From Tolypothrix carrinoi HA7290-LM1 (lineage in GTDB: Bacteria; Cyanobacteriota; Cyanobacteriia; Cyanobacteriales; Nostocaceae), in the NCBI GenBank assembly GCA_019358935.1, contig JAHHIK010000123.1:1-23259 (forward strand): a stretch of 23,259 nucleotides of DNA, given 5' to 3'. Of the stretch, positions 5,894-23,259 are shown piece after piece. The position numbers and the translations under genes were made by a program. Each line of letters begins with the position of its first letter. Position 1 is the stretch's first letter. The notes under the pieces are model-generated. The model was not told the origin of the DNA. It was given only the letters and a program-made list of their open reading frames with translations, and made no database searches.

Positions 5894-6472
5894 TTACTCG
5901 TTTGTTGATTGTTTTTGGCTATTTACGTGCAACTTGATAAAGCTATCAAAAGCATACCATGCTAAAACATACCAGGGAATAATTTCTAATTGCAGTCCTT
6001 TATTAAGTAATTGCCGCAGCGAAAGAGTAGCTAATCCCAAAGGGAAAAGAATCCGTAAATCAAAAGCACCATGTGTTGACTGTTTGACGCGCTGGTTTAA
6101 GTCAACAACCGCTGATGATACTCCGGCTGCTGCCTCGGTGTTACCTTCGGTAACATCGGCAAAAATTATTCCTAAATCTTTAAGTGTCGCTAGCACATTT
6201 TCTAGGCTGCCATCTTTACCGTCGTGATTGATAACAATACTGCCATGATAAACGTTAGTTTTAACTTGATTTATGTGAGAATTTGCTGACAAAGCATTGG
6301 CGATGCGTTGCATCTTTTCTGGTTGACGATGGGAATGAGCTACTCTCAATCGCAATCTTCCGGGAGTCGAACTGACAACTTTTGTGGATATCGGTTTTGC
6401 TGGTGTTTTTAAGGTGGCTTTGTCTATAATTTCCGGCATTTTATTGTAAGTGCTATAACCATTTGTTAACAT
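5894..6472 (-). CDS. HMA2-like domain protein with C-terminal membrane segment (FezC-like architecture)
   Basis: 'VVSSTPGRLRLRV...VKTNVYHGSIVIN' is followed by the hydrophobic 'DLRILFPLGLATLSL...IIPWYVLAWYAFDSF'. Confidence 0.8.
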   Translation of the reverse strand: MLTNGYSTYNKMPEIIDKATLKTPAKPISTKVVSSTPGRLRLRVAHSHRQPEKMQRIANALSANSHINQVKTNVYHGSIVINHDGKDGSLENVLATLKDLGIIFADVTEGNTEAAAGVSSAVVDLNQRVKQSTHGAFDLRILFPLGLATLSLRQLLNKGLQLEIIPWYVLAWYAFDSFIKLHVNSQKQSTNE

Positions 6473-6533
6473 GCAATTGCCTTTTTGGTTTGTGTGATGG
6501 TGGGTTTTTTGTTGTGAAAGGATTTGTTATCTA

Positions 6534-6650
6534 TAGGACTTACGCTTTTAGGACTAAAAAACGAACCGCGTTCGGCGAAGCCGTTGCCGCAGGCTAGACA
6601 CGAAGGACACGAAGAAATAAGAGTTTGAGAGAGTTTTTGCGTAAGTGTTG
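6534..6650. mobile_element. MITE-like element 1
   Basis: Ends are TAGGACTTACGC ... GCGTAAGTGTTG (perfect 8-bp core ACTTACGC/GCGTAAGT). It is flanked by the direct repeat TATCTA (6528-6533, 6651-6656) and contains ACACGAAG repeats and a GC-rich SDR-like stretch. Confidence 0.7.
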
Positions 6651-6668
6651 TATCTAATATTTTCAGTA

Positions 6669-6768
6669 GGTACTTCCAAAACATAAATTATTCTATTTTC
6701 GTAGGGTGCGTTAGGTGGAAGACCGTAACGCACCCTACTAATTTGATATTTTGGTAATTGGAAGTCCC
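6669..6768. mobile_element. MITE-like element 2 containing a REP-like palindrome
   Basis: Terminal IRs GGTACTTCCAA / TTGGAAGTCCC (1 mismatch). Internal perfect 13-bp IR GTAGGGTGCGTTA (6701-6713) / TAACGCACCCTAC (6726-6738). Confidence 0.7.
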
Positions 6769-6782
6769 CTATGGGGAACAAT

Positions 6783-6892
6783 TTACAGCAATTTTCATGT
6801 ATTTAGACCACACTCTTGTTTCTTCCTTTGCGCCTTTGCGACTTGGCGTGAGATAAAAATAATGTGGTTGATTTACCTGAAAATCGCTGTAA
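6783..6892. mobile_element. MITE-like element 3
   Basis: Imperfect ~30-bp terminal IRs TTACAGCAATTTTCATGTATTTAGACCACA / TGTGGTTGATTTACCTGAAAATCGCTGTAA. Internal CCTTTGCG tandem repeat. Confidence 0.7.
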
Positions 6893-6913
6893 CTTGCTGA
6901 TGGGCGGATGGGA

Positions 6914-7222
6914 TTATGCCCCATTATCTGGGACATTATCTGCATGGGTGGCACTAGCTTCAAACGCTGGGGTTTGTTTTTCCTCAGCAAGTTCTGCTCT
7001 AGCTTCGGCTACCATGTCTTCCCAGGTTTCCCCCATTTCTGCAATGGTTCCTTTGCTTCTTTCATAAAGACCAATTCCACCTTTGATCACTGATTTGACT
7101 AAGGGTTTACCAACTCCAGCTACAATCGGCAACAAAACAGGTGCTAAAAGTACTGCACCAATTCCGGCTATAATACCGGGAGCGCCTGCGTCTTCCACGA
7201 AATCACTAATTTTAGGTGCCAT
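6914..7222 (-). CDS. DUF5132-type small membrane protein (GxxxG-rich, MamC/Fez-like)
   Basis: 'GIIAGIGAVLLAPVLLPIVAGVGKPLVKSVIKGGI...GETWEDMVAEARAEL'. The ATG at 7222 is preceded at 8 nt by AGGAGGA (7231-7237, minus strand), which favours it over the TTG at 7228. Confidence 0.8.
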   Translation of the reverse strand: MAPKISDFVEDAGAPGIIAGIGAVLLAPVLLPIVAGVGKPLVKSVIKGGIGLYERSKGTIAEMGETWEDMVAEARAELAEEKQTPAFEASATHADNVPDNGA

Positions 7223-7293
7223 ATTCAATTTCCTCCTGGTTAATTAAAAAATCTGGGAAAGCTTTTTAAGGTACTCTTGTCAAGATAGTTGTA

Positions 7294-9531
7294 TCATCTT
7301 GCCGATGGTAGACTTTTATTCTTGCGACTTTTAAGAATTGGACGCAAACCGTTGACTCCGGCAACTACCGTTGAGCCGTTGTTAACTACCGTTGCAGCTA
7401 AGGGGTTAAGACCAAAGAGAACGGCTATTATTAATGCCGCTAAGTTAGGAACGGCAACAAGACCTGTGTTTTGTCGAATCAATTGCTTGGCTTGACGAGC
7501 GATCGCTAAAGCTTCTAATAAACCATGCAAGTCATTCTGCATCAACACTAAGTCTGCTGTCTCGCGGGCTATTTCAGAACCGTTGGCAAAGGATACGGAA
7601 ACATCAGCGTAGGCTAAAGCTGGCGAATCGTTGATGCCATCGCCTACAAATGCAACTGTCTTGCCTTGTTCGTGCAGTTGGCGGACTACTGTTGCTTTTT
7701 GTTCTGGAAAAGCTTCTGCGTGAGTTGCGGATGGCAATATACCAAGTTCAGCAGCAACAGCGGTAGCGGTTCGCTTATTATCGCCGGTTAGCATGTGAAT
7801 TTCCACACCTTCTTTTGAAAGTGCTGTAATGACTTCTCGGCTTTCCGGACGCAGAAGGTCACTATATTTAATAATACCTTGAAGTTGACTGTTGCTGGCT
7901 ACATAAATCGCTGAATCTGCTGATTTTTGCTGACCATTTAGCGCTTCGGTGTCAATGCCACGGTCGCGCAAAAAGCGATCGCTCCCGACGTAAACTGTCT
8001 CTCCATCAATCAAAGCTTGCACGCCCAAACCTAGTTGATAGTCCCACTTGCTACGCGGTAAAATTGCTACTTGCTGTGCTTCCGCATAGCGAACAATTGC
8101 TTCTGCTACTGGATGAGTTAAACGCTGTTCGGCGGCTGCTGCCAATTCTAACACCCGCAATGTTGAAGTTGCCGGATTGAGACTTTCTACACTGACAACA
8201 TCGACTTCTCCCTTAGTCAGTGTCCCTGTCTTATCAAAGACAATCGTATCAACTTCTGCTAGTTGTTCTAACGCCCGTCCGCTACGGATAAGAATACCCC
8301 GCCGTGCAGCATAAGTTAAGGCTGCTAAAACTGTTGTCGGGACTGATACTCGAATCCCGGTAGCAAAGTCTAAAGTTAAGACGCTGGCTGCTCGTGAGGG
8401 GTTGCGGGTTGCGGCAAATACTGCCCCACCAAGTAGCAAAGTTGGCACAACAGCTTTTTGAGCAAATTTTGTGGCATAATTTTCCATGCGGGTATCGTGG
8501 ACTGGCGCTTCTTGCATTAACTTAATGCTCTGTCCGGCGCGGGTATCATTGCCTACGCGTTCTGTAAGAATATAAATTCGTCCTTCCCGCACCAGCGTAG
8601 AAGCAAAAACTGGTTGTCCCTTCTTTTTCAAGACAGGCATCGATTCGCCAGTTAGTTTCTGCTCATCTAGTAACGCTTTACCTCGCAAAATGCTACCATC
8701 AACCGGCACTTGTTCGCCAGGGTAAACAATCACTGTATCCCCACGCTGGACATCTTGAATGGGAATTTGTACCTTTTCCCCATTGCGTTCTACCCAGACA
8801 AATTGTCCCAGAGAACTAAGTAAATCTAGGGTTTGTTGAGCCGAAGAACGAGCCGTGCGATCGCGTATATTTTCGCCGACTTCAATTAAACTGAGCATTA
8901 GCGATGGTGTGAGAAATTGACCTTGGAAGGTAGTAATAGCGATCGCCATCAAATCCAAAAAGTCAATATTCAGTTTTCGCTCTACTGTAATACCTGACCA
9001 TGCTCGTTGAACAACAGGTAATGTGGCAATGGCGATCGGCAGCGCTACTATTAACGGTGGGATCGGTAATCCCAAAGGTCCCCCCAACACAGCTAAAGTA
9101 GTTGCAACAGCAGAAAGTTGTAAACCGGGCCAAGATGTCTCTTTTTCGGTTGACGTGACGGTATTTTTCAGAACGACTACTTCACTTGCAGCCTGAATCA
9201 AATCGTGAAGGTGCGATCGCATTTTCGCATCGTCAACTTTAGCAGATTTATAAGTAACTGCAACTGACATTGCCGCCGGCTTGACACGGACATTCTTTAC
9301 CAACGCATCTGCTGTTAACAATACTTCTAGACGCTTGGCATAATCTGCATCACAGCGTAAGCGAGGCACGCGAAACCGCAGCCTTCCCGGAATTGCATGA
9401 ACAACGCTGTATGTAACGTTGGGAAACTGTCCTTGATGTCCATTACTGTCAATTGAAGAAACTTTACCATTCCCTTCCACCACAGTCACTTGAGTTGGGG
9501 GTGATGGTAGTTCCAGTGTTACTTTTGCCAT
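7294..9531 (-). CDS. P1B-type heavy-metal-translocating ATPase, P1B-6/FezB-like
   Basis: LTGES, DKTGT (8221-8235), HP and GDGINDSPAL motifs are present, along with an N-terminal 'HAIPGRLRFRVP' domain. 'LDFATG' replaces CPC and 'VNNGST' lies in the last TM. The ATG at 9531 is preferred over the TTG at 9549. Confidence 0.9.
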   Translation of the reverse strand: MAKVTLELPSPPTQVTVVEGNGKVSSIDSNGHQGQFPNVTYSVVHAIPGRLRFRVPRLRCDADYAKRLEVLLTADALVKNVRVKPAAMSVAVTYKSAKVDDAKMRSHLHDLIQAASEVVVLKNTVTSTEKETSWPGLQLSAVATTLAVLGGPLGLPIPPLIVALPIAIATLPVVQRAWSGITVERKLNIDFLDLMAIAITTFQGQFLTPSLMLSLIEVGENIRDRTARSSAQQTLDLLSSLGQFVWVERNGEKVQIPIQDVQRGDTVIVYPGEQVPVDGSILRGKALLDEQKLTGESMPVLKKKGQPVFASTLVREGRIYILTERVGNDTRAGQSIKLMQEAPVHDTRMENYATKFAQKAVVPTLLLGGAVFAATRNPSRAASVLTLDFATGIRVSVPTTVLAALTYAARRGILIRSGRALEQLAEVDTIVFDKTGTLTKGEVDVVSVESLNPATSTLRVLELAAAAEQRLTHPVAEAIVRYAEAQQVAILPRSKWDYQLGLGVQALIDGETVYVGSDRFLRDRGIDTEALNGQQKSADSAIYVASNSQLQGIIKYSDLLRPESREVITALSKEGVEIHMLTGDNKRTATAVAAELGILPSATHAEAFPEQKATVVRQLHEQGKTVAFVGDGINDSPALAYADVSVSFANGSEIARETADLVLMQNDLHGLLEALAIARQAKQLIRQNTGLVAVPNLAALIIAVLFGLNPLAATVVNNGSTVVAGVNGLRPILKSRKNKSLPSAR

Positions 9532-9667
9532 TAGTTTTCTTTGATACAAAATTGTGAAAATGAAAATCAGGCTCTTTGCTGAGGTAAAGAAAGCAAATTA
9601 GCCACCAATCCTGCAAGATTGATTAGCTATGAACAGGTTATTTGTCAAATTCTGCTAGTAGGGTTAG

Positions 9668-10480
9668 CTAACTTATCGCTGCTGCGGGATCGTTGGCAGA
9701 TTGAATTAGACTGGCTAGATGGGATATTGCTGCTGACAAGAAGCTTTGCACTCGCTTGTGGGAATCCCGCATCATCCCAGTTTTATAGGTAATGACAATT
9801 GATCTGGCAGCGCTATTAACTCGCTCACTCGTAACTGTAGAATCCGATGTGAGTAATGCCTTTAAGCGTTGGACATATTGTGGATCGCTGGCAATTCGAG
9901 GTATGCGAAACCGCACTCTTCCGGGAATTGCATGAGCAACGCTATAAGCTACTTTTGTCGGTTGCTTTGTTTGTTGAATTACGGGTTGAGAATGAGTAGA
10001 GGATACCGAGTTGCTTTTAGTTTTAGAGACTGACGCATCCAAAAAGGACTTTGGCTTTGTATCCTGCCTGGATTCTAGGTTCTTGGCAACTGGGTATAAT
10101 TTTAATTGGTTTGCAGTTGCTGCTAGCACTTCTACATTACCAGCAAACTGAATCAAATTGCAAAGATGCGATCGCATTTCAACATCTGACATGACACCAC
10201 AATTGTAAGTAATGACAATTGACCCGGCGGTAGTATTATTGATATTGATTTGCTGACTTATTACCAAAGGTTCATTGGCAAGCAAAGCCAGAAGGCGTTG
10301 CAGATATTTTGGATATAAGCTAATTTGAGGTATGCAAAATCCCACTTGTCCGGGAAGTGCATAAGTAATGCTATATACTACCTTTGCAGGCGGCGTTACT
10401 GGGCAATTAATCTCGTCTGTGACTATTTGCGCTTGTTTTCTATCTAGATGCGATCCCATTTCCAACGTTAAACCAGCCAT
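9668..10480 (-). CDS. Tandem HMA2-like domain protein (one degenerate, one canonical copy)
   Basis: Domain 1 is 'YSITYALPGQVGFCIP...AGSIVITY' and domain 2 is 'YSVAHAIPGRVRFRIP...RVNSAARSIVITY'. A Ser/Lys/Gln-rich linker joins them. Confidence 0.8.
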   Translation of the reverse strand: MAGLTLEMGSHLDRKQAQIVTDEINCPVTPPAKVVYSITYALPGQVGFCIPQISLYPKYLQRLLALLANEPLVISQQININNTTAGSIVITYNCGVMSDVEMRSHLCNLIQFAGNVEVLAATANQLKLYPVAKNLESRQDTKPKSFLDASVSKTKSNSVSSTHSQPVIQQTKQPTKVAYSVAHAIPGRVRFRIPRIASDPQYVQRLKALLTSDSTVTSERVNSAARSIVITYKTGMMRDSHKRVQSFLSAAISHLASLIQSANDPAAAIS

Positions 10481-10514
10481 AATTTACCTTGAGTATTCCG
10501 CTTCAAACTGTGTC

Positions 10515-11771
10515 TTACGTTTCTAAAGGTAAGTTCGCCATAATACCTAAGGAGAAAGACATCGCTGGCGATTTTAGGTTAGTCCACGGACTGGATAATG
10601 TTGACTGACTAACTTTTAAATTTGTTTGATTCGCCGTTGTTGCCTCTGTAATTTCCGCAGTCTGACTAATTTCTGATTGTTGGTATGTTGGCGGGTTTGT
10701 CTCTAGCGCCAACTCGATCAAACTCACCCAATGAGATAATGGTATCTCACTCTGCTGATAAGCGATCGCGATCGATGCCGCATCATAATTTACTCGCACG
10801 CTTGTAACTTGAGCATCAGTTTTTACTAATCTCTCAAGTCGCCGTCCATAAGCGCGATCGACAGCGATTTTCGGCACATTCAACCGAATACGTCCATTAA
10901 TTGCATGGACTACGCTGTAGTCAATCTTTGCAGGTGCTACCCCCTCACTAGTACTCGACCAACCCAATTTTGACGGGTGAAGGCTAGCAGGGGAGGCAGG
11001 GGAAGCAGGGGAGGCAGGGGGAGAAAAGAACTTGGTTTTCTTACCATAAACCCCGCAAAGTTTCTTTGGTGAACTACTAGCTTTATCAACATTTGTTGAC
11101 TTTTCTTCTTGGATTGATAATTCCGATTTGTCTTTGATGTCGCTTTTTATCGCAGAACTCGGATGATAATTTTTATTTTTTTCTGATGTCGAAACTTGAC
11201 CAAGATAACCAATTACACTACGAGTTGCATCTGCTGCAATCATGTAGACTGGAATCGATACCCAGCCATAAATTCCCAACCCTCTTGTTACCGCCAAGCC
11301 TGTCATCATCGGAATTAAGGAAATGCCCTGTTCTTTCCAAAATGAAAGCGATTTCCAAGCTGCAAAAGGATCCAGATTGCTAGCTGAATCAGACTTTGCT
11401 TGCGGTTGGATGTCAAAATTCGAGTTTTTAGCCAAAATTTGCGGCAATGACAGCTTATCTTCATCAAAATTAATTACCAAACTGCCCGTTTGCTCATTCA
11501 CACAAACTTCTCTGACTCCATCTAAGGAGCGTAAATCTTGGGCAATGCTGTCTAATATCGAGTTAAGACTACTGTCAGTAGTGCAAAGTCGCACCCGACC
11601 AGTAGTTACATGAACTATTTGCAAGCCACCTGAGGGCTGTAACCCCGTTGACTGTGCCATAGTTTTAGTTGTACTCTGATTAACTTCATTGCTTTGTTGT
11701 GTAGAGATGAAGTCAGGTGATATTTTAGCGGACAGATTTAATTTTTTGTGATTGCTGATACTTTTAGTCAT
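10515..11771 (-). CDS. Protein with two HMA2-like domains flanking a membrane hairpin
   Basis: 'IVHVTTGRVRL...VNEQTGSLVINF', then the hydrophobic 'LIPMMTGLAVTRGLGIYGWVSIPVYMIAA', then 'YSVVHAINGRIRLNVP...RVNYDAASIAIAY'. Confidence 0.8.
   Translation of the reverse strand: MTKSISNHKKLNLSAKISPDFISTQQSNEVNQSTTKTMAQSTGLQPSGGLQIVHVTTGRVRLCTTDSSLNSILDSIAQDLRSLDGVREVCVNEQTGSLVINFDEDKLSLPQILAKNSNFDIQPQAKSDSASNLDPFAAWKSLSFWKEQGISLIPMMTGLAVTRGLGIYGWVSIPVYMIAADATRSVIGYLGQVSTSEKNKNYHPSSAIKSDIKDKSELSIQEEKSTNVDKASSSPKKLCGVYGKKTKFFSPPASPASPASPASLHPSKLGWSSTSEGVAPAKIDYSVVHAINGRIRLNVPKIAVDRAYGRRLERLVKTDAQVTSVRVNYDAASIAIAYQQSEIPLSHWVSLIELALETNPPTYQQSEISQTAEITEATTANQTNLKVSQSTLSSPWTNLKSPAMSFSLGIMANLPLET
10948..11080. 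mobile_element. In-frame MITE-like insertion in the 10515-11771 gene
   Basis: Imperfect terminal IRs CTAGTACTCGACCAA / TTGGTGAACTACTAG, with CTAG at both ends, and an internal (GCAGGGGAR)n tandem. 133 - 4 = 129 bp = 43 codons. Confidence 0.8.
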
Positions 11772-12567: not shown

Positions 12568-15342
12568 ATGAGGAGTCAAAGCGTGAGGAGTCAAGAAAAA
12601 CGAATAAGGAAGAACGATTTAAGCAAAAAGAGAAAATTGCTAATACCTTTAGCCTTTTACTTTTTACCTTTTAGCTTCTTTAACATCAAGCCTGCGATCG
12701 CAGCGACTCAAAGCCCTATATTAACGATAGTGCAGAGCCAAGAAAATACTAATCAGTGGACAGGGATAACAAACCGCTTGCAACAAGCCGGGGTAAATTA
12801 TTGTGTGATTTCCTTGACAAATGTCAGGAGTGCGGCAGATTGGGGCGATCGCCAAGTGTTATTTTTACCGAATGTAGATACATTAACACCCGCACAAGCG
12901 ATCGCTCTCGAAGAATGGATGAGCAAAGGTGGGCGATTAATTGCCTCAGGACCTGTAGGTACTTTATCAGCACCGGGAGTGCGGCAGTTATTGCAAACAC
13001 TCTTAGGGGGTTATTGGGGATTTAGCCTCAATGATGCACAACAATTGCAACCCGTAAAAAACAACTTACAAAATTGGGCAAACCAAAACGGACTTTTTGG
13101 TAAAGTGCGCGGCGGTGTTGTCGTTGCTGATAATGCAAACAGTGAAGCTGCTGCTGTTTGGAATTCTAAAGATAATCCCGCCGCCGTCGTCGCAACTGAA
13201 CGATCCACCTTTTTTGGCTGGCGTTGGGGGGTAGATACAGCTTCATCTCCTGAGTTAGATACAGCTTGGTTAAAAGCCGCTGTCAACCGTCATGTGAAAG
13301 AAGCAGCAAATACCTCAAATAAAGTAGAAGGCGGTTCGCCAAATTGTTCTACATCCGTCGCCCTCGCTTCCCCCACTCCTGTTCGGACGGGGGAATCTCA
13401 AATAAAACCCCAAAGGGCGGGGGAGGCTCAAATAAAACCCCAAAGGGCGGGGGAATCACGCCCCTACACATCTTTCCCCGCACCTCTCACCGCTACTGCA
13501 CCCCAATCTAGACCGATTCCTAATGTCAACCCCCCAAAGTCAGAAGAAGCGATCGATCAACTTGAACAAGCAGTGCGTTTGGATGTTGTCCCTAACTCAA
13601 ATGCGCCGATTAGTAATAGTGATGCGATCGCCTTACAACAAGAATTACAAAATCTCATCGGTCGAGTTGACAGCGCCAATTTAACCGCCAACGCCATTGA
13701 CAACAATCCCCAAATTGTCAAGCAGGCGCAGCCTACCCAAGTCGCATCCACCAGACCTGGAGTGCTAATTTCTACCACCAACCAAGCCAGAGAAATTGCC
13801 AAAAACTTACCTCAGTTAATTGCCCAACAAAAATACGCCGAAGCGCGTCAGCAATGGATTCAAGCAAAAGGCAATTTGTGGCAGCAATTTCCCGTCGATC
13901 GCCAATTGGCTCAACCAGAAATTCGCGCCGTCTGGTTAGACAGAGGTACAATTGTCCGTGCCAGAAACGAACAGGGACTGGCTGAGATATTTGATCGGCT
14001 GTCAAAAGCCGGTATTAACACTATCTTTTTTGAAACCGTCAACGCCAGTTATACAATTTATCCCAGTCAAGTTGCGCCTCAGCAAAACCCCTTAACTCGT
14101 GGCTGGGACCCTTTAGCAGCAGCAGTGAAATTAGCCCATGAGCGCAACATGGAATTACACGCTTGGGTTTGGACATTTGCTGCTGGCAACCAGCGCCACA
14201 ACGAAGTTATCAACGCTCCTGCTAATTACCCAGGACCAGTGCTAGCGGCTCATCCTGACTGGGCAAACTACGATAACCGGGGTAACATGATTCCCGCAGG
14301 ACAAACTAAGCCATTTTTCGACCAAGCTAATCCGGAATTGCGGCAGTATTTACTTAGGCTGTATGAAGAAATTGTTACCCGCTATGATGTAGATGGGCTG
14401 CAACTAGACTACATTCGCTATCCTTTCCAAGACCCAGCCGCAGGCAGAATTTACGGTTATGGTAAAGCTGCCAGAGCGCAGTTTCAACAACTTAATGGCG
14501 TAGATCCAATTAGTATTTCTCCCTCTCAACGGGATTTGTGGCAAAAGTGGACGGAATTTCGCACCCAACAAGTTGATAGTTTTGTCGCTCAAGCTTCACA
14601 GCAGTTGCGACAAAAGCGACCTAATTTAATTGTCTCAGTTGCCGTATTTCCCCTGCCAGAACTAGAACGCATTCAGAAAATCCAACAGCATTGGGAAGTT
14701 TGGGCAAGACAGGGAGATATAGATTTAATTGTCCCCATGACTTATGCCTTAGATACTCCTCGCTTCCAGCGACTAGCACAACCTTGGATTGCTTCCACAA
14801 AATTAGGTGCAACTTTGTTAGTGCCGGGAATTCGCTTGCTTTCTTTGCCGGTAATTGGCGCATTCGATCAAATTCAGGTAATCAGGGACTTGCCAGTTAG
14901 CGGTTACGCATTGTTTGCCGCCGAAAATCTGACCAACGAGTTACAGAAAGTCTTTGGTAATACTCAAGGTAATATTCGCCAAGGTGAAATTATTCCTCAC
15001 CGCCAACCTTTTAAAACTGCTGCCGTGCGTTACACAGCGCTGCAACGCGAATGGAAGTTTGTCTTGCAAAACGACCAATTGCGTCTACCTCAAACGACAC
15101 TTTCAACTTTTAACAGCCAAACAGAAGTTTTGCAAAATGCTTTAGATCAGCTTTCTGCCGCACCTTCTGCGAGTAAGTTAATCGCCGCAAAAGCTTCTTT
15201 AACTCGCTTTCAGTCTCAATTCCGCATTTGGATGCGCCAAGAAAATATTGATAATCCTTATCAAGTTAGAGCCTGGGAAAATCGCCTTGCCACTATCGAA
15301 AGGTTATTGCGATACGGTGAGCGGGTGCAGTTGAGGCGATAG
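12568..15342 (+). CDS. Secreted GHL10 / DUF187 (family 10-like) glycoside hydrolase
   Basis: Basic-hydrophobic signal peptide ending AIAA. TIM-barrel motifs EIRAVWLDRG, GINTIFFE, LHAWVW, GLQLDYIRYP and DLIVPMTY. Pro-rich linker. Confidence 0.85.
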   Translation: MRSQSVRSQEKRIRKNDLSKKRKLLIPLAFYFLPFSFFNIKPAIAATQSPILTIVQSQENTNQWTGITNRLQQAGVNYCVISLTNVRSAADWGDRQVLFLPNVDTLTPAQAIALEEWMSKGGRLIASGPVGTLSAPGVRQLLQTLLGGYWGFSLNDAQQLQPVKNNLQNWANQNGLFGKVRGGVVVADNANSEAAAVWNSKDNPAAVVATERSTFFGWRWGVDTASSPELDTAWLKAAVNRHVKEAANTSNKVEGGSPNCSTSVALASPTPVRTGESQIKPQRAGEAQIKPQRAGESRPYTSFPAPLTATAPQSRPIPNVNPPKSEEAIDQLEQAVRLDVVPNSNAPISNSDAIALQQELQNLIGRVDSANLTANAIDNNPQIVKQAQPTQVASTRPGVLISTTNQAREIAKNLPQLIAQQKYAEARQQWIQAKGNLWQQFPVDRQLAQPEIRAVWLDRGTIVRARNEQGLAEIFDRLSKAGINTIFFETVNASYTIYPSQVAPQQNPLTRGWDPLAAAVKLAHERNMELHAWVWTFAAGNQRHNEVINAPANYPGPVLAAHPDWANYDNRGNMIPAGQTKPFFDQANPELRQYLLRLYEEIVTRYDVDGLQLDYIRYPFQDPAAGRIYGYGKAARAQFQQLNGVDPISISPSQRDLWQKWTEFRTQQVDSFVAQASQQLRQKRPNLIVSVAVFPLPELERIQKIQQHWEVWARQGDIDLIVPMTYALDTPRFQRLAQPWIASTKLGATLLVPGIRLLSLPVIGAFDQIQVIRDLPVSGYALFAAENLTNELQKVFGNTQGNIRQGEIIPHRQPFKTAAVRYTALQREWKFVLQNDQLRLPQTTLSTFNSQTEVLQNALDQLSAAPSASKLIAAKASLTRFQSQFRIWMRQENIDNPYQVRAWENRLATIERLLRYGERVQLRR
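13388..13459 (+). repeat. 30-bp in-frame tandem duplication (2.4 copies) in the GHL10 linker
   Basis: CGGGGGAATCTCAAATAAAACCCCAAAGGG / CGGGGGAGGCTCAAATAAAACCCCAAAGGG / CGGGGGAATCAC, translating as GESQIKPQRA-GEAQIKPQRA-GES. Confidence 0.85.
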
Positions 15343-15534
15343 GAATGGGTAATGGGTAATCGGTAATGGGTAATTGGGAATTGGGAATTGGTAATGGGTA
15401 ATTGGGAATTGGTAATTGGTAATAGAAAGAAATTATCTCCCCATGCCCCATGCCCCATTCTCCATTCTCCATTACCCATTCCCCATTCTCCATTACCCAT
15501 TCCCCATTCCCCATTCCCCATTCCCCATTACCCC
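15343..15534. repeat. Two STRR heptamer arrays in inverted orientation
   Basis: (GGGTAAT/GGGAATT)n at 15343-15423 and (CCCCATT/CTCCATT/ACCCATT)n at 15439-15534, directly after the GHL10 stop codon. Confidence 0.9.
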
Positions 15535-15670
15535 TTGTCTCCTTGCAGACGAAAATTACAGTAAAAATACGCGAGTGTTTCTGAGGGTTGGGCGCAAAAA
15601 TATGAAAGGATACTTTATATAAGCTCGTAAGGACGTACATATTTTGTGATACGATCGCTCGCTATCATCT

Positions 15671-21255: not shown

Positions 21256-21280
21256 ATTTTGCCTCGGCAATTATTAAATA

Positions 21281-21371
21281 GGTAATGGGTAATGGTGAGC
21301 CAGCGCGGTCTTGGGGGTCTCCCCCATGAGCGACTGGCGAACCCCGAAGGGGGGAATGGGTAATGGGTAAT
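21281..21371. repeat. STRR (GGGTAAT)n array interrupted by an SDR-like structured unit
   Basis: GGTAATGGGTAATGGT-[GAGCCAGCGCGGTCTTGGGGGTCTCCCCCATGAGCGACTGGCG-AACCCCGAAGGGG]-GGAATGGGTAATGGGTAAT. Confidence 0.8.
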
Positions 21372-21394
21372 AGGATAAATCCTTCGTTCTCCCC

Positions 21395-21729
21395 CTAGGG
21401 CGTGTTGTCGCTCCTACTCGTTTAGCCTCCTAACTTTTAAGATCCCCCTTTTCAAGGGGGACTTTAAGAATCTCTTAGCCCCCTGACCAAGAGGAGCCAC
21501 TTGCGTGGTGAGGCAGCGCGGACCAGACCAGCCCCCGTCTTGGCGGTCTCCCTGATCGATGGGGGACTGGCTCTCCCGTTGGGTCTTGGGGAGGCAGTGC
21601 GTTGGGCGGCTCTGCCGACTTGAAGCACCTGCCGTGGTTTCCCCCATGAGCGACTGCCGCTCATGGTTTCCCGACTTGAGCAAAGTGGCGTGGGTTGGGG
21701 AGATTTAAGACTTTGAAAACACGCCCTAG
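21395..21729. mobile_element. MITE containing nested SDR-like units
   Basis: 15-bp terminal IRs CTAGGGCGTGTTGTC / GAAAACACGCCCTAG (1 mismatch). The GC-rich interior (21495-21691) is built from nested related hairpin units. Confidence 0.8.
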
Positions 21730-21733
21730 CGCC

Positions 21734-22759
21734 CTAACGCACCCTATCAAGAACACCCCAATCACCGGAGGGAACAAAGCTCGCCCAAAAATAGGGATGC
21801 TCATAACCAGGGGTGTTGATAAACTCCAGCTGTGTTTCTCGCAGTGCTTCGTGTCTACCTTTACCGCCTTTCAACTTTTGATAATAGTTCACCATCAAGT
21901 CTTTAGTTGCAATGTCGTCAACAGACCACAAACTCAAGATTTGACTTTGTACACCTGCAATCACGAAAGCACGCCGCAACCCATAGACCCCTTCCCCAAC
22001 TTTGACATCACCCGTTCCAGTTTCGCAAGCAGAGAGCACCGCTAACTGAGTTCCGTGCAAATTTAGTCCGGCGACTTCTAGAGCAGTGAGAACTCCGTCA
22101 TCATTACCTGCGGTATTCTGGTTACGTTTGTTGACACCAGCTAATGCTAACCCTGCCCGCAACAGGGGATTTTCTCCTTGTAATTTTGGTTGCGGTTGTC
22201 CTAATCCAGTTAAGGATAAATTGGAATTGGGTTCTAGATCCGAGAGAAAGAAACCGTGGGTAGCTAGATGTAAAATACTGGGAGCCTGTAGTTGTTTGAC
22301 AGCGCTTTCTGTTGCTTGTTTACCCAACAACACTTTCGCATTAGGAAAGATTTTTTGAACCGCAGCTGCTTCTTCTTTTGTACCAGGAAGTGAGTCAAAT
22401 GTCAGGGAAGCTTGGTCAACTGAGGTGTTTTTTTGTCCAGATGCAACTTGTCGCGTCTCTACATTGTCGTAGTCGATATCAGCCAACACCACAGGAGCAG
22501 AACTGCTATTCAATGAAGATGGAAACCGCAACAAATCGCGACCAGAGGTGAGATAAGATATTGAATACCGCTGAATTAGGTATTGTCTTTTCTCATCTCG
22601 CAGCGCTTCAAAGGGAATTAGTGTTAACTGTCCATCGGGAGACAGCAATATCTGACGCGCATTACCCAGTAAAGTCCGAATGGGAGACATTACTTGCTTA
22701 TCCAGTTTGCGAGCCATTTCCTGTGCCGGTTTGGCTAACGTTCGGTTTGTCAAAGCTTC
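21734..22759 (-). pseudogene. C-terminal CHAT (caspase HetF-associated with TPRs) protease domain, cut off from its 5' part by an IS
   Basis: ILLSPDGQLTLIPFEAL, LPGT.EE, LHLATHGFF (catalytic His), VLSACETG (catalytic Cys), SLWSVDD and HPYFWASF. Upstream of ~22759 the sequence is the tnpB element end. Confidence 0.8.
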
Positions 22760-22772
22760 CGCTCTGTAAAAC

Positions 22773-23134
22773 TTATACAATCTTGGACATGCCAAGTTGA
22801 GGCTTACTTCCTGTTTCAATCGGTCCCCCAGGCAGATCCCGTCCGCAGGCTTCCACGGCAGAGCTTGCCGCAGTTTCTGAATAATCTCTGATATTCAACG
22901 AAGCATTCAAATCGCGGTCAATAGAAATACCACAATTAGGACAGTCGTAAGTCCTTAAGTGTAGTGGCATCGGTTGACGATGACCGCAATTACTGCAAAG
23001 TTGACTAGATGGATAAAATCTGTCGATGACAACAACTTTGCTACCATACCATTCAGCTTTGTATTCCAACTGCCTTCTGAACTCATAGAAACCAGAATCA
23101 GCGATCGCACTCGCTAATTTGTGATTCTTCAGCA
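22773..23134 (-). CDS. tnpB: TnpB RNA-guided nuclease, 3' exon (interrupted by a group II intron)
   Basis: The frame reads LKNHKLASAIADSGFYEFRRQLEYKAEWYG...PSSQLCSNCG...YDCPNCG..IDRDLNASLNI (Zn ribbon + RuvC-III Asp). It extends upstream of the called ORF start to 23134. Confidence 0.88.
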
Positions 23135-23259
23135 GTTAGAGTCGAGAGGGGATATTATTCCCCGTCCCTCTCTGTTAGAACCGTGCGTGCAACTTTTGCT
23201 GCACACGGCTCCCGATATTCTTAAGGGATAACCCTTTTACTCATGTGGGTATAATCGTG
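23135..23259 (-). ncRNA. Group II intron, 3' end (domains V and VI)
   Basis: The minus strand reads GAGCCGTGTGCAGC-AAAA-GTTGC-AC-GCACGGTTC (23211-23178), a 34-nt domain V with the AGC triad and AC bulge. A domain VI hairpin follows, ending CTCGACTCTAAC (AY end) exactly where the tnpB frame resumes. Confidence 0.9.
23221..23259 (-). CDS. Probable last 12 codons of the intron-encoded RT/maturase (HNH tail), partial
   Basis: It reads HDYTHMSKRVIP* and ends just before domain V. H-x3-H resembles the end of the HNH domain of cyanobacterial intron-encoded proteins. Confidence 0.5.
   Translation of the reverse strand, partial: HDYTHMSKRVIP

What the first reader, a model, noticed from the sequence alone, without database searches (positions are those of the whole stretch)
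21734..23259. Three-level nesting: group II intron inside tnpB, inside an IS, inside a CHAT protease gene
Seen: intron domains V/VI end at 23135 (...CTCTAAC), precisely within a tnpB codon (x|TG-CTG-AAG-AAT-CAC, likely M-L-K-N-H). The tnpB element in turn ends at ~22759, abutting a 5'-less CHAT gene. Inference: TnpB production would depend on intron splicing, the intron can hitchhike on or home into a multicopy IS, and two RNA-based selfish systems share one transcript.
Basis: partly seen in the sequence, partly recalled or inferred. Interest (0 to 1): 0.75.

Follow-up and report, generated by a model that had tools for sequence, protein, structure and literature searches.

The report
Intron homing into TnpB catalytic motif
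A self-splicing mobile intron sits inside the RNA-guided nuclease gene (tnpB) of a transposon that itself breaks a protease gene, and the same intron family repeatedly lands just after the nuclease's catalytic motif in many unrelated tnpB genes of cyanobacteria; introns in tnpB are already described, but this shared landing site was not found in print.

Summary
The nesting is real. The window is a whole contig ending inside a group II intron (RT-HNH type), inserted at A|TG in an IS607 tnpB. The IS ends at GG 22759-22760 inside a TPR-CHAT gene. A separate contig (L267) supplies the matching left half: TPR part, left end, intact tnpA, tnpB exon 1 and intron start. The intron did not hitchhike; it homes. 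Identical copies sit at the same codon, seven after the RuvC-II catalytic Glu, in 4 unrelated tnpB genes (IS607 and IS605 types) of 5 assembled 3' ends. EBS1/EBS2 of relatives pair with this motif and covary with it. 24 distinct insertions at this site were found, all named ones cyanobacterial, from two intron clades only about 40% alike. Splicing would restore a full TnpB; no RNA data test this. Introns homing into divergent TnpB genes are published (Kapitonov 2016, Fig. S9, a different site), and this scan noted similar nests on other DNA. The convergent RuvC-II site was not found in 6 literature searches on introns and IS elements. It is uncommon: only this genome of 401 sampled.

The parts
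23221..23259 (-). Last 12 codons and stop (23223-23221) of the intron-encoded RT/maturase/HNH protein; the contig ends here
   Evidence: the identical copy on C151 extends into the HNH motif; full-length relatives L063 (525 aa) and L016
23135..23213 (-). Group II intron domains V and VI, ending ...CTCTAAC
   Evidence: Rfam RF00029, 60 bits; identical at 5 contig ends
23134..23135 (-). Intron/exon-2 junction, splitting the Met codon A|TG seven codons after the RuvC-II Glu
   Evidence: Exon 1 on L267 ends E-N-L-N-V-S-G plus one base A; intron-free L006 has the unsplit ATG
22773..23134 (-). tnpB exon 2: TG + 119 codons + stop; zinc-finger CxxC at 22997-22986 and 22943-22932, RuvC-III Asp motif at 22919-22899
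22761..22900 (-). Conserved 3' segment of the IS; probable omega-RNA scaffold and right end (function inferred; the intron does not interrupt it)
   Evidence: Strongly conserved across 6 aligned copies with a recurrent hairpin; no Rfam match above cut-off; omega/reRNA position from PMC13565253
22759..22760 (-). GG core at the IS607 right end; no target duplication
   Evidence: IS607 GG rule from PMC6188088
22739..22758 (-). Flank that would serve as the TnpB guide, aimed at the IS-free CHAT allele (inferred)
   Evidence: 16-mer occurs once in the assembly; left flank on L267 ends GAGGG, a common IS607 TAM according to PMC13565253
21734..22759 (-). 3' part of a TPR-CHAT (caspase-like) gene broken by the IS; His codon at 22258 and Cys codon at 22027 retained
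   Evidence: 5' part on L267 (TPR hits)

Best explanation
An IS607 element (tnpA serine recombinase + tnpB, about 1.86 kb) inserted at a GG in a TPR-CHAT gene. A cyanobacterial RT-HNH group II intron then retrohomed into its tnpB. The intron RNA recognises the codons of the RuvC-II motif: EBS2 pairs with the Asn-Val codons, EBS1 with the x-Gly codons and the A of ATG. Because this motif is conserved in most tnpB genes, one specificity opens many unrelated IS605 and IS607 copies as low-cost landing sites. The intron lies in the sense direction, so maturase-assisted splicing would rejoin a 398-codon TnpB with all three catalytic residues; unspliced RNA gives a truncated, inactive protein, while the omega-RNA region is untouched. 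SHOWN: anatomy, boundaries, same-site insertion in divergent genes, EBS/IBS pairing in relatives, two intron clades at the site. INFERRED: that L267 is this copy's left half, the order of events, this copy's own EBS, in vivo splicing and TnpB activity.
For: 4 of 5 assembled 3' ends of this intron are followed by tnpB at the same codon; exons 48-59% identical, a level not above the pairs with the intergenic flank by much (44-50%). The fifth site is intergenic; a 5' end with a mimic of the target exists (C166). Four 5' exons share AAYGTG-NNN-GGSA, and 0 of 24 unoccupied matches to AAYGTG-NNN-GGNAT lie in a tnpB. Seven tnpB-site introns pair 8-10 of 11 positions with their own exon; the sister intron C51 pairs 10 with its TPR exon and 0.5-2.5 with tnpB exons. 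EBS2 at a fixed position: 4.54 of 5 against 2.43 shuffled, 0 of 2000 shuffles (13 introns); within the 8 RuvC-II introns 4.25 against 3.72, 9 of 2000. In G061 all 5 starts of one intron type are at this site. Complete copies exist with both exons (L016, L063, L080, L083). Run X2 has a contig identical over 22759-23134 that then leaves the intron path.
Against: The middle of this intron copy, including its EBS loops, is not assembled; pairing was scored on relatives 79-98% alike. L267 is a separate contig, linked by complementarity only. One tnpB fragment with a well-pairing LNVSG-M site (C174) and several LNVKG-M sites scoring 8-9 are unoccupied; the rule that excludes them was derived afterwards from four sites. 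EBS1 was picked by best fit, and the introns are related, so shuffle counts overstate. Several relatives are damaged (L016 lacks HNH, L040, L051, L077 truncated or deleted). X2 contigs have depth 2 and their unmatched letters were not shown.
Confidence: 0.82

Rival explanations
1. Homing is right but splicing is negligible in vivo: the insertion simply knocks out tnpB, which is dispensable for transposition, so there is no gating or shared function.
For: Most bacterial group II copies are truncated or lie outside housekeeping genes (PMC4424553); tnpA alone suffices for IS607 transposition (PMC6188088); several relatives are damaged.
Against: Spread by retrohoming needs spliced lariat from at least some copies (established mechanism); copies are identical at both ends, so recent; exon pairing is good; both exons and tnpA of this copy are intact.
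Confidence: 0.4
2. The RuvC-II site is not special: introns drift onto any conserved stretch of an abundant, harmless gene family, and tnpB offers many such stretches.
For: Intron starts abut tnpB at 14 different profile positions in five genomes; in G000 at least five sites are used; the published site is near residue 50; my database patterns were built for this site, so its rank among sites is unmeasured; only G000 of 401 sampled genomes had it.
Against: Two IEP clades about 40% identical, each with 100/100 support, hit the same phosphodiester bond; 10 different intron starts among 24 insertions; another family inserts 13 bases upstream in the same motif (L221, L222).
Confidence: 0.5
3. The intron spreads mainly by hitchhiking: one insertion, then transposition of the composite IS.
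For: tnpA is intact on L267, so the composite could move; Kapitonov et al. could not exclude this for two of their copies.
Against: The IS is single-copy here; host tnpB genes are unrelated and of two IS families.
Confidence: 0.06
4. Chance juxtaposition of fragments or an assembly artefact.
For: The contig breaks inside the intron, and the left half is absent from the held assembly.
Against: X1 unitig across both junctions; L267 supplies an exact complementary half with the CHAT frame closing as L-R-E-A-L, as in homologue L253.
Confidence: 0.02

Closest known systems
RT-maturase-HNH group II intron in TnpB ORFs of IS605-1_CC and IS605B-1_CC, Coleofasciculus chthonoplastes (Kapitonov, Makarova, Koonin 2016, PMC4810608, Discussion and Supp. 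Fig. S9)
   Same: Near-identical intron copies at one position in tnpB genes only about 60% alike; same orientation; cyanobacteria; the authors state many other introns lie at other TnpB positions (data not shown).
   Different: Their site is EQQ|N(C/S)L at residues 50/51, in IS605 only. Here the site is seven codons after the RuvC-II Glu, in IS607 and IS605 types, used by two distant intron clades, with EBS/IBS pairing tested. The passages read give no EBS analysis or site list.
Thermosynechococcus elongatus family F4 introns in ISEL1 (Mohr, Ghanem, Lambowitz 2010, PMC2882425)
   Same: Cyanobacterial IIB introns at a conserved site in an IS200-family element; families defined by EBS; insertion elements as expanding harmless target space.
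   Different: F4 introns are ORF-less, three copies in one IS family; the text read does not say which gene or motif is hit.
IStrons, group B (group I intron fused to IS607; PMC13565253 review)
   Same: IS607 with GG ends, TnpB and a self-splicing RNA in one transcript.
   Different: In IStrons a group I intron spans the whole IS and splices it out of the host gene, competing with the omega-RNA. Here a separately mobile group II intron lies inside tnpB, and the CHAT gene stays broken.
IS607 family (Chen et al. 2018, PMC6188088)
   Same: MerR-HTH serine recombinase tnpA, tnpB, GG core, no inverted repeats or duplication.
   Different: tnpB carries an intron.

Membership tests
Mobile group II intron | Domains V/VI and AY 3' end | tested here: met
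   RF00029 60 bits, ends AC
Mobile group II intron | GUGYG 5' end at the matching exon | tested here: met
   On L267 and on C85, C166, L268, not in the window
Mobile group II intron | RT/maturase/HNH ORF in domain IV | tested here: inconclusive
   Only the last codons are in the window; HNH motif on C151; RVT_N, RVT_1, GIIM in relatives L016, L063; Pfam did not call the HNH part of L063
Mobile group II intron | EBS1/EBS2 pairing with the 5' exon | tested here: met
   Met in 7-8 relatives at the same site; this copy's domain I is unassembled
Mobile group II intron | Splicing and retrohoming activity | not testable with these tools
   Needs RNA or a mobility assay
Subclass IIB / CL2B | EBS3-IBS3 and IEP clade placement against reference introns | not tested
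   +1 is T in 5 of 5 but EBS3 was not located; best solved relative is 6ME0; 525-aa IEP with En fits the CL2B description in PMC8919778 by length only
IS607 | Serine-recombinase TnpA with N-terminal HTH upstream of tnpB | tested here: met
   L267 200 aa, Resolvase + MerR; L002 likewise
IS607 | GG core at both junctions, no target duplication | tested here: met
TnpB nuclease | RuvC-I D, RuvC-II E, RuvC-III D and zinc finger | tested here: met
   D and E on L267 exon 1, zinc finger and D in the window; motif names from PMC13565253 and recall
TnpB nuclease | Omega-RNA and guided cleavage | tested here: inconclusive
   Conserved 3' segment, no Rfam family above cut-off; activity untested
IStron | Group I intron whose splice sites coincide with the IS ends | tested here: not met
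   Only a group II match, internal to tnpB
TPR-CHAT protease | TPR region plus CHAT domain with His-Cys dyad in one ORF | tested here: not met
   Both parts and the dyad are present but split by the IS; a pseudogene

The most novel reading that the evidence does not exclude
The RuvC-II motif of TnpB is a selected, convergent hotspot: several cyanobacterial intron lineages have independently tuned their EBS loops to codons that TnpB cannot change, occupy every matching copy, and make TnpB (and thus the IS's guided homing) dependent on intron splicing. Because the site lies between RuvC-II and RuvC-III, the interval that holds HNH in IscB and Cas9, it would be a living model of the proposed route by which an intron HNH entered a RuvC nuclease, better placed than the published example at residue 50.
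Probability: 0.25. Interest if true: 0.7.

Novelty: new variant of a known kind. Interest (0 to 1): 0.45.

Why it matters
It turns a 'data not shown' remark into a mapped, testable case: a retroelement that reads the catalytic-motif codons of an RNA-guided nuclease family and so parasitises two transposon families at once. It gives a natural construct for asking whether splicing gates TnpB, and a concrete site for the hypothesis that the HNH of IscB/Cas9 came from a group II intron. It also warns that cyanobacterial tnpB genes annotated as fragments may be spliced and active. If the site is merely one of many, the result is ordinary nesting with a measured enrichment.

Tried and rejected
The left half was sought in the held assembly and not found: no exon 1, tnpA or CHAT middle part; the truncated TPR gene on C6 was rejected as the partner. 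Sequencing-run search: no RNA holder listed. The IS right-end pattern gave 0 metagenome matches. A looser site pattern in 401 genomes of the phylum gave 6 matches, 5 of them not tnpB, against 15 control matches that I counted in the table. 32 of 49 matches were chance hits outside tnpB. One search scored target sites one codon out of register and was replaced. Folding of the L016 domain I segment put EBS1 and EBS2 in loops but was not better than shuffles (z -0.66). An IscB/IsrB alignment was too poor to place the HNH insertion to a residue, so only 'same interval' is claimed; intron En against IscB HNH gave 27% over 48 aa, E 0.03, generic. The IEP frame is not in frame with tnpB exon 2, so no ready-made fusion exists. 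The 34-40 of 90 figure from five genomes was rejected as an estimate of prevalence because those genomes were chosen for carrying the site. Other contigs of the L267 record could not be reached, so this copy's domain I stays unknown.

Full report
Observation. The window is the whole contig C123 of its genome. Domains V-VI of a group II intron lie at 23213-23135 on the minus strand, preceded by the last codons of the intron-encoded protein. Then come 362 bases of tnpB, a GG at 22760-22759, and a CHAT domain ORF lacking about 700 N-terminal residues. The contig breaks because the intron is repeated: in run X1, which may be the source, intron unitigs have depth about 5000 against about 500 for the flanks, suggesting some ten copies, though the tool warns that depth is no copy number.

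The missing half. It is not in the held assembly. A metagenome-collection contig, L267, carries in order a TPR region aligning to residues 393-694 of a CHAT paralogue, a GG, an IS left end, an intact 200-aa MerR-resolvase TnpA, 278 codons plus one base of tnpB, and 123 intron bases identical to the intron start on C85. Its IS part is 91% identical to the intron-free IS607 L002, to which the window's part is 88% identical. Removing the IS at the GG closes the CHAT frame as L-R-E-A-L, as in homologue L253. By arithmetic the spliced tnpB has 398 codons with the RuvC D, E, D residues and the zinc finger. The link is an inference from complementarity, not a spanning read. In an independent run, X2, one contig matches 22759-23134 without a difference and continues for 1356 letters that are not the intron; another matches the CHAT part to 22760 and continues for 1550 letters that are not the IS. 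Both have depth 2 and the letters were not shown; they fit intron-free and IS-free alleles.

Homing, not hitchhiking. Five contig ends carry the identical intron 3' end; four continue into tnpB at the same codon. The first 180 bases of these exons are 48-59% alike; two have IS607-type and two IS605-type right ends (end types recognised partly from recall). The fifth is intergenic, and one intron start follows an intergenic mimic of the target. Four known 5' exons share AAYGTG-NNN-GGSA; none of 24 unoccupied near-matches in the assembly is in a tnpB, but this rule is post hoc, and sites such as C174 pair well with relatives' EBS yet are empty.

RNA basis. In seven relatives inserted at this site, EBS1 and EBS2 pair at 8-10 of 11 positions with their own exon. 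A sister intron on C51 (84% IEP identity) has different loops that pair 10 of 11 with its TPR exon and at most 2.5 with tnpB exons. With EBS2 read at a fixed position, 13 introns average 4.54 of 5 against 2.43 for shuffled exons (0 of 2000); within the 8 RuvC-II introns 4.25 against 3.72 (9 of 2000). The introns are related, so these are not probabilities. EBS3 was not located.

Spread. A pattern scan of 185,579 species genomes gave 49 matches; 17, in 12 cyanobacterial genomes, are intron starts after the tnpB motif, 32 are chance. The metagenome scan gave 7 more matches, 6 distinct. In all there are 24 distinct insertions with 10 different 22-base intron starts (duplicates such as L016 and L052 counted once). 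A tree of 23 IEP rows places them in two clades with 100/100 support and about 40% identity, with other-site introns interspersed; at least three label changes are needed. The site is uncommon: of 401 genomes sampled from the phylum only this one matched truly.

tnpB as a general target. In this genome 9 of 23 domain V hits adjoin a TnpB match, though tnpB is about 0.5% of the bases. In five genomes chosen for the site, 34 of 90 intron starts have a TnpB match within 45 codons upstream, 26 within 5, at 14 positions (90 of the 100 matches were fetched). A Pfam scan of 79 segments from the rest added about six tnpB hits and one IS200 TnpA, and no other transposase family. In relatives not chosen for the feature, 7 of 69 usable starts abut tnpB, all in sense, against 1 of 1500 random positions of G000 (70 starts fetched, only part of those listed, and the control is from G000, not those genomes). 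So the enrichment is real, about 10%, not dominant.

Comparison with what is known. Kapitonov et al. 2016 (PMC4810608; passages of the main text, and supplement parts 60 and 63 read; supplementary file 2 could not be searched) describe near-identical RT-HNH introns at one position in two TnpB genes about 60% alike, at residues 50/51, state that many others lie at other positions, and propose this route for the HNH of IscB/Cas9. Mohr et al. 2010 (PMC2882425; passages and part 2 of the results) report three introns at a conserved site in ISEL1. PMC13565253, PMC6188088, PMC8919778, PMC4424553, PMC3073962 and PMC7923331 were read as passages only. Searches (and 94) listed no paper on a RuvC-II site, but the library lacks most subscription journals and the intron databases were not checked. 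Two earlier notes of this scan describe similar nests on other genomes; one led me to the Kapitonov paper.

HNH question. In an IscB of this genome the RuvC-II Glu is at 152 and the HNH cysteines start at 193, so the intron site falls in the same interval. The alignment could not refine this, the frames do not fuse, and the paper itself derives HNH-bearing IscB from HNH-less IscB1 (IsrB), not directly from TnpB. It is an analogy, not an ancestor.

Verdict. Real, well mapped three-level nest; mechanism most likely retrohoming to the RuvC-II codons (0.82). The kind is known; the convergent site, its use in IS607 and the EBS evidence are additions. Splicing-dependent TnpB is untested. Interest 0.45.

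Noticed in passing
G000:C84:105-3216: One tnpB appears to carry two different group II introns, at profile positions about 248 and 325.
   Followed up: partly
L221, L222 (G006): A related intron inserts directly after the L-E-D-L codons, 13 bases upstream of the site studied here.
   Followed up: no
L102, L107, L111, L115, L122, L127, L243, L246: One intron family inserts into a hairpin-like motif resembling IS200/IS605 right ends, several just 3' of tnpB, so possibly in the omega-RNA.
   Followed up: partly
L187: An intron start follows ...GTTTTACAGAG, the same motif as this IS607 right end, three bases before the end.
   Followed up: no
L090, L146, L148: An intron family with a shared site; in L146 the exon is IS200 TnpA (Y1_Tnp).
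   Followed up: no
L267, first 127 bases of the minus strand: The TPR part of the same CHAT gene is cut by the end of a second multicopy repeat with 16 hits in G000, mostly at contig ends, so the gene was hit twice.
   Followed up: partly
G000:C151:1-130: This intron copy is preceded by unrelated sequence inside its HNH region, perhaps another element nested in the intron.
   Followed up: no
G000:C51:2258-6018: A complete sister intron sits in a TPR gene just downstream of an intact tnpB that it does not target.
   Followed up: partly
window 21256-21733: Intergenic stretch packed with short, very high-copy cyanobacterial repeats, partly nested (depth up to 44,000 in X1).
   Followed up: no
window 15261-15640: Heptamer tandem repeats produce spurious ORFs.
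   Followed up: no
window 5894-11771: Cluster of a heavy-metal P-type ATPase-like gene with several small proteins sharing a repeated 'HAIPGR.R' motif (family names recalled, not tested).
   Followed up: no
G000:C6:46982-48385: A TPR gene paralogous to the CHAT genes ends abruptly near residue 470 with no CHAT domain.
   Followed up: partly
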